64,000 nt of DNA from Candidatus Poribacteria bacterium. Lineage in GTDB: Bacteria; Poribacteria; WGA-4E; PCPOR2b. Location: positions 800,001 through 864,000 of the forward strand of contig OZ244042.1 of assembly GCA_965215015.1 (NCBI GenBank), in the 5' to 3' direction. The notes below the pieces were generated by a model. It made no database searches, was not told the DNA's origin, and saw only the letters and a list, made by a program, of their open reading frames with translations. Position 1 is the first letter of the stretch, and each line of letters starts with the position of its first letter. Below are positions 47,583-52,794 of the stretch, piece by piece. A program made the position numbers and the translations under genes.

Positions 47583-48706
<1,124 letters not shown>

Positions 48707-48736: not shown

Positions 48737-51700
48737 TTACTCAGATGCTGTTACAGGTAGCCCGACGAAAAGCCGGCTATCAATATCCGTAAGCGGGTCA
48801 ATTTCCCGGCACGCTGCGGCGCGGGCGAACACGATCCCGGGCTGCTTGGCTCGCATCGCACGCGACAAAACGGTAAACCCTTTTGATTGGCTGCTATTGC
48901 GTAATTCCCACGCAACTCGTTCCAGCTCTAAGTTGAATCGAACAAGCCCTTCCCGTGAGCCAACGCATAGCGTGTAGAGTTCATCAGACGTTAAGCCCTC
49001 GCAATACCCGTTACGAATCACAACCTCTCCGCCTCGGATATCTGACACTGTCCCTCGCGCCCCGACAACACAACCAAGTCGATGAAGTCTGCTCGTAAAG
49101 GAGCGGCTTTTGACTGCGAGGATATGTGCTCCCAAGTTGTTATCAGCAAAGTTTTCGTAAGCGGCAATCCATTCTATAAGTTCTTCCGCGTAAGTGTCCC
49201 ACGCTGTTGCATCGTCAGGGTCCCTAGGAACGGGAGGACTACCATCGCCCCTACTGAGAAACGGACTCATGGATGCCCCCGATTCCTTTACAATTTCGAG
49301 TCCACGCTGCATCAACCGTTCAGCGACTTCAATGGTGCGATCAATTCCCTCGCGTTTGAGGAGTGTTCTTAGCGTATCCGCTAACGAGCGTCGCGTGACC
49401 AAACCATCAGGAATAGCAACCTCCATCCCGACAATTCCTGCGAGTTCATCACGCCCCTCAGGGGTGAGACTCAAACTTGCCAATCCCCATATCGCGTCAT
49501 GCCCTGGGGCTAATGCTGTGCATACATTTGGATCCCGTTTGAGATGTCCAGTGATGGAGAGCCGTTCACTAGCTTCTCGTTGGCCCGCCGCTGTGATGGG
49601 CAGAAAAACCGCCGCTTGGTCGCCATCAAAGTCAGCATTCATTAACTCACAGACGAAAGGGTGAACACGGATGACACGGCCTGGCTGGCGTACCGGATGA
49701 AATGCAACAAAGGAGGTAGGCATATACGCAGGGGCTCGATGCACAATCACCCATGAACGTCCCATCAGCTCATCAAGTGCCTGTGTTGCACCTTGGCTGC
49801 GGCCTCGCACGGCTTTGGCATCACCGAGTTCCTTTGTAAGTTCCGGCCCGAAGAGTGCCCATGCCATCTGTTCTGGAATGCCGACCTGATCGGCGCGTAG
49901 CTCCGCACCCGGGACAATGACGCAGCGCCCACTGAAGAGTGTCCGTGCCTTAAAGCGCATGTCTGCCGGGCTTAGCAGCACGTTGAAGTATTCCGCAAGG
50001 CGCGTTTGGAGTTGCTTGAGGGCTTGGAAGGTCAGGCTTTCCGGTGCATCATTTGCAAACATCCGCTCTGCTCTGGTATTGGCATCGGCAAGTACATGAT
50101 ACTCGGAAATGCCTTCACAGACACCAACTTCATCAATGGTTTGACTATGTAGCCACGGATGGGAGACTGGCCGGGCAAGCTGGAGCGTATTTCCAGTCGG
50201 ACGTACAAATTGGAAAGTCAGTCTGTCACCATCAAAGTTAGCGCAGATACCTGCCGCCGAAAGCTGCTCCCTGAGCTTAGTAAACATCGGCGTCGGTGGA
50301 CTTGCTTGCTCAACTTTCCCTGCTGTAACACGATCGAGAAGTGTCTCCGCATCTACTCGCGTCGCAGCACGGGTATTGAAATGTTCCCGCAAAGTTTCAA
50401 ATGCTGAAGTGTTGCGTAGCGTATAGTATTCGAGTTCACCAAGCCCTTGATGATATATAGGGGCCTCGTGGACGATTGGTTCAGATACCTTGAGCTTATC
50501 AAGCGCGATGTGAACTGTCTTCCCCCAATAAACCCAACCAACTGTACTCGGCCGATTCAGTTTTTTGCCGTTAGCTCCAAACGTGAGGGTTTCCATCCCA
50601 TCTTCAGGCAGCCCTAACTTTTGGAGTAGCTCACGGAGTTGATTGACACTAGGTGCTTGAAATGGCGGCACAATGGCCGTTTCTCCTTCCGTCCGTGCGA
50701 TGCGCCCCACGATTGCTTCACGGATTTGACCAAAGTTCATCCGCCCGTGCAAAGCACCGAAGCTGAAGACAAGCTCTACCGGCGTGCCATCGGCGAGGTG
50801 GGGCATCTCATCGTCAGGGGTGATGCGCGAAATGACCCCTTTCGTGCCGTGACGGTTACTGATCTTATCACCCGGCTCAATAATATAAGGGAAATTCAGA
50901 CGCGTAGCGCACGACTCACTAATCACGATGCCGTCCTCAAAGGTCTCCCCGCCCCAAGAGATAAAAGCGGTCAACAGATTACGTCCACACCAAAAGTAGG
51001 GGACATCAGGCTCGTAACCTGTCTGGACAAGTGCAGGCTCTGGGGAGACAGTCAATCTTGGCATCTCCTTGGAACAGCTAACTGGAGCAGCCTCTGGAGC
51101 AGTAGGCGACAACCACTGACGCATCATGTTCGCCCCCATGAGTACTCGCGATGGATCATTGTGTTCGAGAAAAGGGATTAGTGCTGCAGACAGACCTAGC
51201 GTTGCTTCCTGGCTATCATCCACGATGACCAATTTTTTATCACGAATCTCCGCCCCCCTCGCAACTGTCAGAATTTTGCCGACGTTTGGTCCTTCTGGCG
51301 TTTCAAATGGGCAGGTCCGTCCAAAGTGTCCAGAGGTAAAGACCTGATTCCCCTGTAAAATCCGCACCCTACGTAGATGTGTATGCTTGTCGAGCCAGTT
51401 GGTACTGGAGAGTCTCTGAGCGGTAAATGTGTCACGAAAGAACTCGCGCACCCATCTGTCAATCGGAAGCCACGAGCGAATAAGCGACGTATCCCATTCC
51501 AGATCTGGCGGTGCTTCTCTGATACGCGCTTTGAAGTAATCGTACAGTTGATCGCCCACACACTCAATCTTCGCTTGTTTCAGTTTCACGGTTGAGGCGG
51601 TCGGTACGACAACATAGGGTTCACCATCAAGCGTGAACATACCGTCTACATCAGGCTGCGGAATACCCGTGTATTCGACCTCAACATACCCCTCAGTTGA

Positions 51701-51856
51701 CGCCAGCACAAGTTTCACGCGACAGGTGTACGTACCAATTGGCTCAAAACGATAACCGGCTAGTGGCAGCCGGTCAGCAAGGAGTTCTGGCAATCGTTCT
51801 TTCATCAATCCTTCAAAAGACTGCTTGTGCCAAAATGCAGTAATGTTGTTCGACAT
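48737..51856 (-). CDS. Miniaturised single-chain RNA polymerase-like protein (RpoB-RpoC fusion)
   Basis: Beta motifs in order: 'GRTCPFETPEGPNVG', 'LIPFLEHND', 'MGANMMRQ', 'FEDGIVISE', 'GDKISNRHGTKG', 'GRMNFGQ', 'LGELE'. Then beta-prime motifs: 'FSGRCVI', 'HRAP', 'NADFDGD', 'EGL', 'GSREGL'. AGGAGG RBS. Confidence 0.93.
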   Translation of the reverse strand: MSNNITAFWHKQSFEGLMKERLPELLADRLPLAGYRFEPIGTYTCRVKLVLASTEGYVEVEYTGIPQPDVDGMFTLDGEPYVVVPTASTVKLKQAKIECVGDQLYDYFKARIREAPPDLEWDTSLIRSWLPIDRWVREFFRDTFTAQRLSSTNWLDKHTHLRRVRILQGNQVFTSGHFGRTCPFETPEGPNVGKILTVARGAEIRDKKLVIVDDSQEATLGLSAALIPFLEHNDPSRVLMGANMMRQWLSPTAPEAAPVSCSKEMPRLTVSPEPALVQTGYEPDVPYFWCGRNLLTAFISWGGETFEDGIVISESCATRLNFPYIIEPGDKISNRHGTKGVISRITPDDEMPHLADGTPVELVFSFGALHGRMNFGQIREAIVGRIARTEGETAIVPPFQAPSVNQLRELLQKLGLPEDGMETLTFGANGKKLNRPSTVGWVYWGKTVHIALDKLKVSEPIVHEAPIYHQGLGELEYYTLRNTSAFETLREHFNTRAATRVDAETLLDRVTAGKVEQASPPTPMFTKLREQLSAAGICANFDGDRLTFQFVRPTGNTLQLARPVSHPWLHSQTIDEVGVCEGISEYHVLADANTRAERMFANDAPESLTFQALKQLQTRLAEYFNVLLSPADMRFKARTLFSGRCVIVPGAELRADQVGIPEQMAWALFGPELTKELGDAKAVRGRSQGATQALDELMGRSWVIVHRAPAYMPTSFVAFHPVRQPGRVIRVHPFVCELMNADFDGDQAAVFLPITAAGQREASERLSITGHLKRDPNVCTALAPGHDAIWGLASLSLTPEGRDELAGIVGMEVAIPDGLVTRRSLADTLRTLLKREGIDRTIEVAERLMQRGLEIVKESGASMSPFLSRGDGSPPVPRDPDDATAWDTYAEELIEWIAAYENFADNNLGAHILAVKSRSFTSRLHRLGCVVGARGTVSDIRGGEVVIRNGYCEGLTSDELYTLCVGSREGLVRFNLELERVAWELRNSSQSKGFTVLSRAMRAKQPGIVFARAAACREIDPLTDIDSRLFVGLPVTASE

Positions 51857-51922: not shown

Positions 51923-52537
51923 TCACCTTTCCTCTTCTTCCCAGCCGCTTGCGATCTCCTTCCATTCGCGGGCAAGGTGTTTTATGGAATGGTGTAAACG
52001 CGACTTCACTGTGCCTTCTGGAATACCTAGCTCTATGGCGGCTTCTCGCAGTGCCATTTCCCTCTGATATATGAGGTGAAGGACTTCGCGTTTCTCTTGG
52101 GGGAGCTCATCAACAAGCTGCCAGAGCAGCTGAGATTGTTCGGCTTGCTCCACCATCACTTCGGGACCATGTGACGAAACGTCAACCATCCAATCTGGAT
52201 CTGGCAGACGTTCCTCCTCATCGTCGAATTCGTCTGGAGGTATTTCAAGGGGTTCCTGTCGCCGTCGCCGCACGGTGCGCAGATGATTGAGGGCGAGGTT
52301 CGTTGCGATGCGGAAAAGCCAGCCCTTGAACTCGCCTTGACCATTCCACTGTTCAGCACGCGTCCAGACACGTAAAAACACCTCTTGAACCAGATCCTCA
52401 GCAGCACTTTCAACCCGCACGATGCTAAGGATATGCTGACGGACGGGCACACGGTATCGAGCAAAAAGCGTTTCAAAGGCGGCGGCATCGCGCTTTACAG
52501 TCTTGCGAATGAGGGTTTGGTCTGATTGTTCCATCAT
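51923..52537 (-). CDS. ECF (group 4) sigma-70 family sigma factor
   Basis: Region 2 'AEDLVQEVFLRVW', 'WLFRIATNLALNHLR'; region 4 'AAIELGIPEGTVKSRLH'. Confidence 0.95.
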   Translation of the reverse strand: MMEQSDQTLIRKTVKRDAAAFETLFARYRVPVRQHILSIVRVESAAEDLVQEVFLRVWTRAEQWNGQGEFKGWLFRIATNLALNHLRTVRRRRQEPLEIPPDEFDDEEERLPDPDWMVDVSSHGPEVMVEQAEQSQLLWQLVDELPQEKREVLHLIYQREMALREAAIELGIPEGTVKSRLHHSIKHLAREWKEIASGWEEEER

Positions 52538-52554
52538 AAAAGGCTTTCACTGTA

Positions 52555-52582
52555 AATGACACCGTAGGAGGGATAAAAGTTC
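52555..52582 (-). promoter_or_regulatory. Putative ECF-type promoter GAACTT-N16-GTCATT upstream of the sigma gene
   Basis: Minus strand: GAACTT ttatccctcctacggt GTCATT, ending 17 nt before ATG 52537; fits the AAC(-35)/GTC(-10) ECF pattern. Confidence 0.65.
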
Positions 52583-52794
52583 ATTGTCTGAATCAGGATT
52601 CTCAGGATTAGGTTAAATAAAACGCAAAGGCGCGAAGGCACAGAACCGCAAAGAAGATCAGACAAAACTTTGCGTCTCTGCGTTAGATTTTTCATCGAAT
52701 CCCGATTAGGTTTTCGGATTTTGGGTGGCGTGAATGGGTATAAATGTGATAAGATGCACATGTTACTCATCACACAATACATTAGGTTAGGAAC

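What the first reader, a model, noticed from the sequence alone, without database searches (positions are those of the whole stretch)
49619..50941. Catalytic residues of both barrels are intact despite heavy divergence
Seen: NADFDGD at aa 740-746 (49619-49639), 'HRAP', 'FED', 'GDKISNRHGTKG', 'GRMN' and 'KTVH'. Established: these match E. coli beta' N458/D460/D462/D464 and R425, and beta E813/D814, K1065/K1073, R1106 and H1237. Inference: selective retention of Mg-, NTP- and RNA-contacting residues argues for an active nucleotidyltransferase rather than a decaying duplicate.
Basis: partly seen in the sequence, partly recalled or inferred. Interest (0 to 1): 0.85.

Follow-up and report, generated by a model that had tools for sequence, protein, structure and literature searches.

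The report
Miniature fused RNA polymerase with own sigma
The gene encodes a one-chain, one-third-size version of the bacterial RNA polymerase core that keeps its catalytic residues, is under purifying selection and is always paired with its own sigma factor, a widespread module we found described in no paper.

Summary
ORF 48737-51856 (-) encodes a 1039-aa protein. Its N-terminal half is a condensed RNAP beta and its C-terminal half a condensed beta'. All six motifs lie at the stated places and map to the E. coli residues named.

In 68 representatives that are 35-54% identical to it, the 13 catalytic positions are kept in 91% of cells, against 31% mean column identity. The Asp triad is kept in 65-66 of 68. 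Only N740 (40/68) and R707 (57/68) vary much, and two representatives have lost all three Asp. dN/dS against same-genus orthologues is 0.14-0.19, so this is not a decaying duplicate. Canonical rpoB/rpoC lie elsewhere in the genome.

New here:
- The lobe, flap and rudder are deleted, and no room is left for a trigger loop. The clamp helices and bridge helix are retained.
- An orthologous ECF sigma gene sits directly upstream in 72 of 76 testable loci, from at least eight phylum-level labels.
- A conserved ECF-type promoter precedes the pair in 69 of 74 loci. It is the only strong site of its kind in this genome.

Best reading: an active minimal RNA polymerase that is the dedicated output of its sigma. 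Whether it also uses that sigma is open. No paper on this family was found.

The parts
48737..51856 (-). Gene for the 1039-aa fused mini beta-beta' protein (P0001). An AGGAGGA ribosome-binding site lies just upstream of the ATG.
   Evidence: Pfam and NCBIfam; model
50222..51856 (-). Beta-like half, aa 1-545. It corresponds to E. coli beta 444-1342 with gaps, plus a short N-terminal part. The lobe (about beta 150-443) and the flap with SI2 (beta 832-1058) have no counterpart.
   Evidence: hhalign E 1.8e-50; Z about 29-31
48740..50221 (-). Beta'-like half, aa 546-1039. aa 583-978 correspond to E. coli beta' 266-790. The rudder segment (about 311-340) is deleted, and only 50 aa follow the bridge helix.
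   Evidence: (hhalign E 6e-33)
49619..49639 (-). NADFDGD, aa 740-746: the catalytic Mg-binding Asp triad of the beta' barrel.
   Evidence: D742 66/68, D744 66/68, D746 65/68, N740 40/68
49730..49741 (-). HRAP, aa 706-709. R707 corresponds to beta' R425.
   Evidence: R707 57/68
50933..50941 (-). FED, aa 306-308. E307/D308 correspond to beta E813/D814.
   Evidence: E307 59/68, D308 63/68
50837..50872 (-). GDKISNRHGTKG, aa 329-340. K331/K339 correspond to beta K1065/K1073, and R335/H336 to R1069/H1070.
   Evidence: R335 68/68, K331 62, H336 65, K339 64
50735..50746 (-). GRMN, aa 371-374. R372 corresponds to beta R1106.
   Evidence: R372 67/68
50510..50521 (-). KTVH, aa 446-449. H449 corresponds to beta H1237.
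   Evidence: H449 62/68
49976..50107 (-). Two-helix coiled coil, aa 584-627, aligned to the beta' clamp helices (E. coli 266-310). In canonical RNAP this is the site that binds sigma region 2 (that role is recalled knowledge).
   Evidence: (H584-601, H606-627)
48890..48988 (-). Long helix, aa 957-989, aligned to the beta' bridge helix. G954, just before it, is invariant.
51923..52537 (-). ECF-type sigma-70 family factor (P0122, 204 aa), 66 nt upstream on the same strand. It is the conserved partner gene.
   Evidence: (TIGR02937 112 bits, cut-off 42.9)
52558..52583 (-). Conserved ECF-type promoter, TGAAC-N15-GGTGTC, about 45 nt before the sigma start codon.
   Evidence: (30.8 bits; next best in the genome 21.1)

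Best explanation
The ORF encodes a catalytically competent, radically minimised, single-chain two-barrel RNA polymerase. It is a bacterial-type beta fused to beta' and reduced from about 2750 aa (E. coli RpoB 1342 + RpoC 1407) to 1039 aa. Both double-psi beta-barrels, the Mg-, NTP- and RNA-3'-end-contacting residues, the bridge helix and the clamp helices are kept. The lobe, flap and rudder have no counterpart, and no room is left for a trigger loop.

It forms a two-gene operon with a dedicated ECF sigma factor. The operon is driven by a conserved ECF-type promoter that this sigma presumably recognises (autoregulation). The mini-polymerase is the only conserved output of that sigma.

Shown here: the homology, the anatomy, the conservation, the purifying selection, the gene linkage and the promoter conservation.

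Inferred:
- that it polymerises NTPs;
- that the host core enzyme with this sigma fires the operon first;
- that the mini-polymerase itself binds the sigma through its retained clamp helices and uses it to initiate. I put this last step at about 0.4.
For: Catalytic set:
- All 13 residues map to E. coli.
- They are kept in 804 of 884 cells (91%) of alignment A1, my sum of the counts, against 31% mean column identity.
- dN/dS is 0.14-0.19 against six intact same-genus orthologues.

Fold and anatomy:
- The AF2 model has pLDDT 94.1 and pTM 0.92.
- Foldseek top hits are bacterial RNAP beta chains at E about 1e-23, with beta' chains near 5e-20.
- VIA-align gives Z about 29-31.
- The coiled coil at aa 584-627 aligns to the beta' clamp helices, and helix 957-989 aligns to the bridge helix.

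Extra paralogue: the genome has canonical rpoB/rpoC about 1.35 Mb away, at C1:2.19-2.20 Mb.

Family size:
- At least 67 full-length representatives of 50%-identity clusters.
- Relatives in 411 candidate stretches of the species-genome collection. The 80 listed carry the labels Poribacteria, Latescibacterota, Chloroflexota, Planctomycetota, Armatimonadota, Hydrogenedentota, Gemmatimonadota and a Verrucomicrobiota-type genus.

Sigma linkage:
- An orthologous sigma, 43-89% identical to P0122, lies within 400 nt upstream on the same strand in 72 loci. 76 of the 80 loci had at least 700 nt of upstream sequence.
- Four more loci have it 0.8-2.1 kb upstream, and one (L035) has none.
- Sigma and mini-RNAP are the only gene clusters shared across the loci, in 78-79 loci of the 80 plus the window's own region; the other large clusters are antisense ORFs inside these two genes.
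- Their identities to the window's proteins co-vary: r 0.95 over 76 loci, and 0.59 over 64 loci after dropping close kin.

Promoter:
- GAAC-N17-YGTC is present in 69 of 74 upstream stretches, in 0 of 74 reverse complements, and in a mean of 0.45 shuffles.
- Where sigma and polymerase genes are separated (L021), or sigma is absent (L035), a promoter copy sits directly before the polymerase gene.

Predicted sigma-polymerase complex:
- The verdict is 'weak support': score 0.40, best of 3 controls 0.00.
- The mark was reached by 58 of 80 solved complexes and 2 of 110 mismatched pairs. At 0.60 or under, only 7 of those 80 reached it, and so did both mismatches.
- The runs agree in at least 46% of contacts, and the partner's pLDDT is at least 62.
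- My own alignments were used, so these counts hold only roughly.
- Sigma with beta' clamp helices is a textbook pair, so the pass may reflect likeness to solved holoenzymes.

Precedent: YonO, a ~100-kDa single-chain relative with no detectable trigger-loop homology, makes phosphodiester bonds as efficiently as the multisubunit enzyme (PMC5467207, passages read).
Against: - No call shows activity or expression.
- The trigger loop is an essential catalytic element of multisubunit RNAPs (PMC5467207 passages). It has no room here, since only 50 aa follow the bridge helix.
- Fork loop 2 is shortened by 11 aa.
- The ribose-sensing positions are the least conserved: N740 40/68, R707 57/68.
- Two of 68 representatives lost the whole Asp triad, so some members are surely not polymerases.

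Against use of the sigma by the mini-enzyme:
- The flap has no counterpart. In canonical holoenzymes its tip docks sigma region 4 and sets the -35/-10 geometry (recalled).
- The promoter nevertheless has a classical fixed-spacer bipartite form. This fits the host core enzyme better.
- Three E. coli clamp-helix residues that I recall as critical for sigma-70 binding (R275, E295, A302) align to A592, A612 and R619 (alignment; the residue roles are recalled, not tested).
- The PWM finds no second convincing site in the 5.94-Mb genome. The own site scores 30.8 bits. The next best score 21.1 and 20.2 bits, one inside an ORF on the other strand and one with no downstream same-strand ORF.
- A sigma-dependent mini-enzyme would therefore have only its own operon to transcribe.
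- The complex prediction is only weak.
Confidence: 0.6

Rival explanations
1. It is an active polymerase that works without its sigma. The sigma, with the host core enzyme, merely switches the gene on. The mini-enzyme then does something other than promoter-directed transcription. Possibilities are primer or R-loop synthesis, RNA-templated RNA synthesis, or extension of RNA 3' ends. An open enzyme without lid, rudder or flap would favour these.
For: - The promoter has the classical ECF bipartite form with a fixed spacer, and the flap is missing from the mini-enzyme.
- Only one strong promoter site exists per genome: in the own genome, and mostly one exact site per genome among same-genus relatives, 14 of 18 of which have a match.
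- The rudder segment has no counterpart. The lid region lies before the aligned stretch and was not mapped.
- The YonO paper's discussion says the lid separates RNA from the template and prevents R-loops (PMC5467207 passages).
- The lobe and jaw, which hold downstream duplex DNA in canonical RNAP (recalled), are absent.
Against: - The clamp-helix coiled coil is retained and its 'N-x-R-L-x-R-x-L...AP' core is conserved in the family consensus. This would be unexplained if no sigma-like partner bound there.
- The complex prediction gave weak support for binding (score 0.40 against a best control of 0.00, with all the caveats stated under the best explanation).
- Nothing here points to a template or product.
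Confidence: 0.25
2. It is a core-mimicking regulator of its sigma, that is, a functional anti-sigma or decoy. It occupies the position that an anti-sigma gene usually has in ECF operons, binds the sigma through the clamp helices, and titrates it away from the host core. Catalysis would be secondary or absent.
For: - No other gene, and so no anti-sigma gene, is conserved next to the sigma.
- The second gene of the operon retains the sigma-docking coiled coil.
- There is weak support for binding (score 0.40, best control 0.00, caveats as above).
- Two of 68 representatives have lost the Asp triad yet remain full length.
Against: - A decoy would need only the clamp helices.
- Instead the residues for Mg, NTP and the RNA 3' end in both barrels are among the best conserved positions of a 1039-aa protein.
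- Both halves are under equal purifying selection.
Confidence: 0.08
3. It is a decaying or non-functional duplicate of rpoB-rpoC, or an annotation artefact.
For: - It scores far below the curated cut-offs of every rpoB/rpoC model: 177.7 against 801 bits and 93.3 against 963.5 bits.
- About 60% of the canonical length is missing.
- One same-genus orthologue (L068) reads as a broken frame.
Against: - The 1039-codon frame is intact.
- dN/dS is 0.14-0.19.
- Orthologues of the same length and architecture occur in at least eight phylum-level labels.
- The predicted fold is confident and compact.
- The partner gene and promoter are conserved.
Confidence: 0.02

Closest known systems
Canonical bacterial RNAP beta and beta' (RpoB/RpoC), including the natural full-length RpoB-RpoC fusions (NCBIfam PRK14844 and PRK09603 models)
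   Same: - It is clearly derived from this lineage, with 28-38% identity in the main aligned core segments to E. coli.
- Bacterial models score higher than archaeal ones: rpoB 177.7 against 135.1 bits, rpoC 93.3 against 38.9 bits.
- It has both barrels, the same catalytic residues, a bridge helix and clamp helices, in beta-then-beta' order.
   Different: - It is about 38% of the combined length.
- The lobe, flap with SI2, and rudder have no counterpart, and no room is left for a trigger loop or jaw.
- The whole N-terminal part of beta' before about residue 105, where I recall the Zn-binding segment to lie, has no aligned counterpart.
- It scores far below every curated cut-off.
- It is an accessory gene present alongside the real rpoB/rpoC, and is patchy even within its genus, 9 of 13 genomes.
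- Positions equivalent to E. coli beta D516 and S531, which I recall as rifampicin-resistance sites, are S and R (alignment).
YonO of Bacillus prophage SPbeta (single-chain two-barrel RNAP; PMC5467207, abstract and passages read)
   Same: It is a single polypeptide of about 100 kDa with two barrels and no trigger-loop homology, and a much reduced set of nucleic-acid-contacting domains. YonO sets the precedent that such an enzyme can be an efficient RNA polymerase.
   Different: - According to the paper, YonO shares only a few active-centre residues with multisubunit RNAP. This protein has strong, long-range sequence homology to beta and beta'.
- YonO is prophage-encoded. No member of this family was found in the phage records, plasmid records or IMG/VR contigs; those matches were 25-35% identical, and the annotated features under them are RNAP beta/beta' genes.
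- Linkage to a sigma factor is not a YonO feature, as far as I recall.
- No direct sequence comparison with YonO was run.
K2ORF6p, the large RNAP subunit of yeast cytoplasmic linear plasmids (PMC6211774, passages read)
   Same: It is a beta fused to part of beta' in one chain of about 1000 aa, with lid and rudder likely missing.
   Different: - The yeast enzyme needs a second small subunit (K2ORF7p) that carries C-terminal beta' regions. According to that paper it is of viral origin, and it works with a capping enzyme and helicase.
- Here no third conserved gene exists, the similarity is to bacterial beta/beta', and the partner is a sigma factor.
[quoted passage not shown]
ECF sigma / anti-sigma operons (PMC7826278: abstract read, main text term-searched; supplements closed)
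   Same: The upstream gene is an ordinary two-domain ECF sigma. It has a conserved GAAC...GTC-type promoter in front of its own operon.
   Different: The co-transcribed partner is not an anti-sigma factor but a polymerase-core homologue. The main text of the classification paper holds none of the terms I searched for. Its supplementary context tables could not be seen.

Membership tests
Two-barrel (double-psi beta-barrel) polymerase superfamily | Two double-psi beta-barrel domains homologous to those of beta/Rpb2 and beta'/Rpb1 | tested here: met
   Pfam Rpb2_6 at 8e-40 and Rpb1_2 at 2e-18. hhalign E 1.8e-50 and 6e-33. VIA-align Z about 29-31 to beta/Rpb2 chains. Foldseek beta' chains at about 5e-20.
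Two-barrel (double-psi beta-barrel) polymerase superfamily | DxDxD metal-binding triad in one barrel, and conserved basic residues in the other | tested here: met
   D742/D744/D746, K331/K339, R335 and R372 are present. They are kept in 62-68 of 68 representatives.
Canonical bacterial RpoB / RpoC (NCBIfam equivalogs TIGR02013, TIGR02386) | Score above the curated whole-protein cut-off | tested here: not met
   177.7 bits against a cut-off of 801.15, and 93.3 bits against 963.5.
Canonical bacterial RpoB / RpoC (NCBIfam equivalogs TIGR02013, TIGR02386) | Flap domain (beta) and trigger loop (beta') | tested here: not met
   E. coli beta 832-1058 has no counterpart. Only 50 aa, with three short helices, follow the bridge helix. 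The alignment to beta' ends at residue 790.
Canonical bacterial RpoB / RpoC (NCBIfam equivalogs TIGR02013, TIGR02386) | Assembly with the alpha dimer and omega into a five-subunit core | not testable with these tools
   No call addresses it.
YonO-type single-chain RNAP | Single polypeptide with both barrels and no trigger loop | tested here: met
   The feature list comes from PMC5467207 passages.
YonO-type single-chain RNAP | Sequence relatedness to YonO and a prophage context | not tested
   No YonO sequence was compared. No family member was found in the phage records, plasmid records or IMG/VR contigs.
Yeast linear-plasmid RNAP (K2ORF6p/K2ORF7p) | Beta-beta' fusion plus a separate small subunit carrying C-terminal beta' regions | tested here: inconclusive
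   The fusion is present. No third conserved neighbouring gene exists, but a partner encoded elsewhere is not excluded.
ECF sigma-70 family (the neighbouring gene P0122) | Sigma region 2 and region 4 only, scoring above the TIGR02937 cut-off | tested here: met
   Pfam Sigma70_r2 at 4e-17 and r4_2 at 4.5e-11. TIGR02937 at 112.2 bits, cut-off 42.9.
ECF sigma-70 family (the neighbouring gene P0122) | Cognate anti-sigma factor encoded alongside (common, not universal) | tested here: not met
   Only the sigma and mini-RNAP gene clusters are shared across the loci.
Known anti-phage defence systems (PADLOC-DB 2.0) | Match to any defence-protein model | tested here: not met
   P0001 matched 0 families. 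P0122 gave only a marginal hit, E 2e-4, over a 40-aa helix-turn-helix stretch.

The most novel reading that the evidence does not exclude
The pair is a natural, self-contained, orthogonal transcription system. A 115-kDa single-chain core binds its own ECF sigma through the retained clamp helices. It initiates at the conserved TGAAC-N15-GGTGTC promoter without alpha, omega, flap or trigger loop. This would be the smallest sigma-dependent RNA polymerase known.

Its product, or the R-loop left by an enzyme without lid and rudder, would be the physiological output. A role such as drug- or phage-insensitive back-up synthesis is conceivable, because the Rif-pocket positions are altered.
Probability: 0.3. 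Interest if true: 0.92.

Novelty: new variant of a known kind. Interest (0 to 1): 0.8.

Why it matters
If it is active, this family defines by natural experiment the minimal part of the bacterial beta/beta' core that still polymerises. About 1000 residues would suffice, with no trigger loop, flap, lobe or rudder. Unlike YonO, every retained residue can be aligned to the E. coli enzyme.

Its strict pairing with one ECF sigma and one promoter gives a directly testable question: can a sigma factor work on a core that lacks the flap? It could also supply a compact orthogonal polymerase, sigma and promoter set for synthetic biology.

It adds a bacterial, chromosomal, sigma-linked branch to the two-barrel polymerases. 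It also suggests a new kind of ECF output or regulator, in which a core homologue takes the place of the anti-sigma gene.

Tried and rejected
Literature. Six full-text searches found no paper on a miniaturised beta-beta' protein linked to a sigma factor.
- The searches were: two-barrel, fused, single-subunit; ECF, Rpb2, genomic context; paralog, rpoB, rpoC, fusion, Poribacteria; mini-RNAP, RpoBC and similar terms; double-psi, ECF sigma; Iyer/Aravind.
- The library lacks most subscription journals.
- Iyer & Aravind 2012 (PMC3769190) and Iyer, Koonin & Aravind 2003 are not held, and either could mention the family.
- The main text of the ECF classification paper (PMC7826278) holds none of my terms. 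Its supplementary context tables are closed and may list this sigma group.

Mobile or viral origin. There were no family members in 50,697 phage records, 72,556 plasmid records or IMG/VR. Those matches were 25-35% identical, and the annotated features under them are RNAP beta/beta' genes.

Defence system. There was no PADLOC match for the polymerase.

Regulon.
- The PWM scan of the own genome found no second convincing site.
- The second-tier site at genome position 5912204 (+), 20.2 bits, was not followed up.
- Exact-pattern counts in 30 relatives were mostly one per genome.

Expression. No RNA holder was listed by the look-up of sequencing runs: four runs of one study, kind unknown.

C-terminal 54 aa. 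Local alignment to E. coli beta' was not significant: z -0.7, with 156 of 200 shuffles scoring as high. Its homology (the stretch after the trigger loop, or the beta' C-terminus) is unresolved. My recalled resemblances there are leads only.

Other points.
- The beta' half was not folded alone, so the structural search tested mostly residues 1-545.
- The 82-aa ORF at 52534-52782 was rejected as a gene. It has no Pfam match, has homologues in only 4 loci, and covers the promoter.
- The simple sigma-70 promoter and terminator scan showed nothing above shuffles.
Full report
What is there. Window 48737-51856 (- strand) is one open frame of 1039 codons with a strong ribosome-binding site. Pfam finds RNA_pol_Rpb2_3 (aa 149-204), Rpb2_6 (best stretch 326-457) and Rpb1_2 (best stretch 700-764). 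NCBIfam and PDB searches hit bacterial RpoB with the N-terminal half and RpoC with the C-terminal half, but far below the curated cut-offs: 177.7 against 801 bits and 93.3 against 963.5 bits.

Mapping to E. coli. I fetched E. coli K-12 rpoB-rpoC and aligned it.
- K331/K339 = beta K1065/K1073
- R372 = beta R1106
- H449 = beta H1237
- E307/D308 = beta E813/D814
- R707 = beta' R425
- N740/D742/D744/D746 = beta' N458/D460/D462/D464

The genome is one 5.94-Mb contig. It carries canonical rpoB and rpoC in long open frames (1743 and 1418 codons between stops) at 2.19-2.20 Mb, so this gene is an extra paralogue.

Anatomy. Profile-profile alignment of the family against E. coli beta (E 1.8e-50) covers aa 88 to about 540 against beta 444-1342. 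It leaves large gaps: beta 832-1058 (flap and SI2), part of 578-650, about 700-760, and 1122-1180. The lobe (about beta 150-443) has no counterpart.

Against beta' (E 6e-33), aa 583-978 align to beta' 266-790. This covers the clamp helices, the active-site barrel, the 'GAS' and 'GARG' regions and the bridge helix. The rudder segment is deleted.

The AF2 model is very confident, with pLDDT 94.1 and pTM 0.92. It shows a coiled coil at 584-627 and a 33-residue helix at 957-989. Only 50 residues with three short helices follow, so a trigger loop has no room. Fork loop 2 is 11 residues shorter.

Foldseek's best matches are bacterial RNAP beta chains at about 1e-23, with beta' chains at about 5e-20. 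VIA-align gives Z about 29-31 at rmsd 2.2-3.2 A over 416-523 residues for model residues 1-545. The beta' half was barely tested structurally.

Is the catalytic set conserved? An exhaustive phmmer search of 1.84 billion cluster representatives gave 9896 hits at E up to 0.001, canonical subunits included. Its top 150 rows include the full-length family members of roughly 920-1100 aa.

I aligned the window protein with 67 of these, which are 35-54% identical to it (alignment A1). Mean column identity is 31%. The counts out of 68 are: R335 68, R372 67, D742 66, D744 66, D746 65, H336 65, K339 64, D308 63, K331 62, H449 62, E307 59, R707 57 and N740 40, with D in 18, E in 4 and Q in 3. That is 804 of 884 cells (my arithmetic). 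P0160 and P0190 have lost all three Asp, and P0166 has D746N.

Against six intact same-genus orthologues, dN/dS is 0.14-0.19 and is alike in both halves. A seventh orthologue, L068, reads as a broken frame. The 'decaying duplicate' reading is therefore rejected.

The partner gene. Directly upstream on the same strand lies a 204-aa ECF sigma factor. The family alignment found relatives in 411 candidate stretches of the species-genome collection. The 80 loci kept are labelled Poribacteria, Latescibacterota, Chloroflexota, Planctomycetota, Armatimonadota, Hydrogenedentota, Gemmatimonadota and a Moanabacter MAG.

An orthologue of this particular sigma, 43-89% identical, lies within 400 nt upstream on the same strand in 72 loci. 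76 of the 80 loci had at least 700 nt of upstream sequence. Four more have it 0.8-2.1 kb upstream on the same strand. L035 has none nearby. Three loci are too short to tell.

All-against-all clustering of ORFs shows that sigma and polymerase are the only gene clusters shared across the loci, in 78 and 79 loci of the 80 plus the window's own region. The other large clusters are antisense shadow ORFs inside the two genes. The window's metabolic neighbours recur in at most 13 loci, those of close Poribacteria.

Sigma and polymerase identities to the window's proteins co-vary: r 0.95 over 76 loci, and 0.59 over 64 loci after removing close kin. This shows co-inheritance, not binding.

The sigma orthologues are unusually alike, with 53% mean column identity. 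They share a conserved motif in the region 2-region 4 linker.

The promoter. A motif TGAAC-N15-(G/A)GTGTC lies upstream of the sigma gene, 40-60 nt upstream in most loci. The loose form GAAC-N17-YGTC is in 69 of 74 upstream stretches. It is in 0 of 74 reverse complements, and in a mean of 0.45 (maximum 3) of 20 shuffled sets. The strict form is in 61 of 74. In the window it is at 52558-52583 (-).

Where sigma and polymerase are separated (L021), a second 34-bit copy sits 166 nt before the polymerase gene. Where sigma is missing (L035), a 22.5-bit copy sits 74 nt before it.

I built a PWM from 47 dereplicated sites (24 bits). It scores the own promoter at 30.8 bits in the 5.94-Mb genome. The next hits score 21.1 and 20.2 bits. 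One lies inside an ORF on the other strand, and the other has no downstream same-strand ORF.

Of 18 same-genus genomes, 14 carry an exact match to the pattern, mostly one per genome. A first try with a wrong spacer was void. So the polymerase is the one conserved member of this sigma's regulon.

How it most likely works. I regard homology, anatomy, conservation, selection, linkage and promoter as shown. The rest is inferred:
(i) the enzyme polymerises nucleotides with RNAP chemistry, about 0.8;
(ii) the classical bipartite promoter is first read by host core plus this sigma, giving an autoregulated operon;
(iii) the mini-enzyme binds the sigma through its retained clamp helices, about 0.4.

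For (iii) the complex prediction gave only 'weak support':
- The score was 0.40 and the best of 3 controls 0.00.
- The mark was reached by 58 of 80 solved complexes and 2 of 110 mismatches. At 0.60 or under, only 7 of the 80 reached it, and so did both mismatches.
- The runs agree in at least 46% of contacts, and the partner's pLDDT is at least 62.
- The polymerase was cut to residues 1-796, and my own alignments were used.
- Sigma with clamp helices is a textbook pair that can pass by likeness.

Against (iii) stand the missing flap, the altered clamp-helix positions (their roles are recalled) and the lack of other promoter sites.

YonO shows that a single-chain two-barrel enzyme without trigger-loop homology can be efficient (PMC5467207, passages read).

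Comparison with what is known. The protein belongs to the two-barrel superfamily and descends from bacterial-type beta/beta'. It fails the membership tests for canonical RpoB/RpoC: the cut-offs, the flap and the trigger loop.
- It resembles YonO in being a single chain without a trigger loop. Unlike YonO, it is alignable to beta/beta' throughout, is chromosomal and is sigma-linked.
- It resembles the yeast linear-plasmid K2ORF6p in being a beta-beta' fusion. In 2018 that paper called this arrangement unknown elsewhere (PMC6211774, passages read). The yeast enzyme, however, has a second subunit and a viral origin.
- No family member appears in the phage records, plasmid records or IMG/VR, and the polymerase matches no PADLOC defence model.
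- Within the phylum the gene is patchy: family f1 14/18, f3 8/9 and f2 0/82 genomes, and 9 of 13 in the own genus. It is an accessory gene.

Novelty and limits. Six literature searches and term searches in the ECF classification paper found no description of this family. Two papers that might mention it are not held, and supplements are closed. So 'undescribed' means not found in what I could search.

There is no evidence on expression: no RNA holder was listed. I rate it a new variant of a known kind, with interest 0.8. The boldest reading still open is the smallest sigma-dependent RNA polymerase, a natural orthogonal transcription module, which I put at about 0.3.

Noticed in passing
L068:6001-9116: A same-genus orthologue of the mini-polymerase reads as a 607-aa ORF only. 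The locus is one base shorter than its neighbours' loci, so this is a frameshift or an assembly error.
   Followed up: partly
L021:5835 and L035:5144: The promoter travels with the polymerase gene. L021 has a second 34-bit copy directly before the polymerase gene, where sigma lies about 800 nt away. L035 has a 22.5-bit copy although no sigma gene is nearby.
   Followed up: partly
own genome G000:C1:5912204 (+), outside the window: The second-tier promoter-like site (20.2 bits) lies in an 830-nt intergenic gap with no + strand ORF of 120 aa or more downstream. It is either chance or a non-coding target.
   Followed up: no
G026:C1:1752850 and 1777631: A same-order genome has two exact matches to the promoter pattern, with similar spacers, 25 kb apart. 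The polymerase match lies at 1746000-1747424, near the first. A second target or module is possible.
   Followed up: no
window 51923-52537 (-), sigma aa 112-126: The linker between sigma regions 2 and 4 carries a conserved motif, P-x-W-M/L-x-D ... G-P, with W116 and P125 kept in 90% or more of 52 orthologues. This is unusual for a linker that I recall as poorly conserved in ECF sigmas.
   Followed up: no
window 51370-51465 (-), aa 131-162: In the segment aligned to E. coli beta 497-533, the positions matching D516 and S531 are S and R. I recall these as rifampicin-resistance sites. The pocket is probably not drug-competent.
   Followed up: no
window 52534-52782 (-): The 82-aa ORF listed upstream of sigma has no Pfam match, has homologues in only 4 loci, and covers the promoter and 5' region. 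It is probably not a gene.
   Followed up: yes
P0160, P0190, P0166 (family representatives): These are full-length family members in which the Asp triad is lost (two of them) or reads D746N (one). They look like a presumably non-catalytic offshoot. Their gene context was not seen.
   Followed up: no
window 47945-48706 (+): The convergent downstream gene is a dethiobiotin-synthase-like AAA_26 protein (5e-50). The flanks hold an MFS transporter, an aldehyde dehydrogenase, a GFO/IDH/MocA oxidoreductase and a beta-helix protein. These are ordinary metabolic neighbours, and those checked recur only in the close Poribacteria loci.
   Followed up: partly
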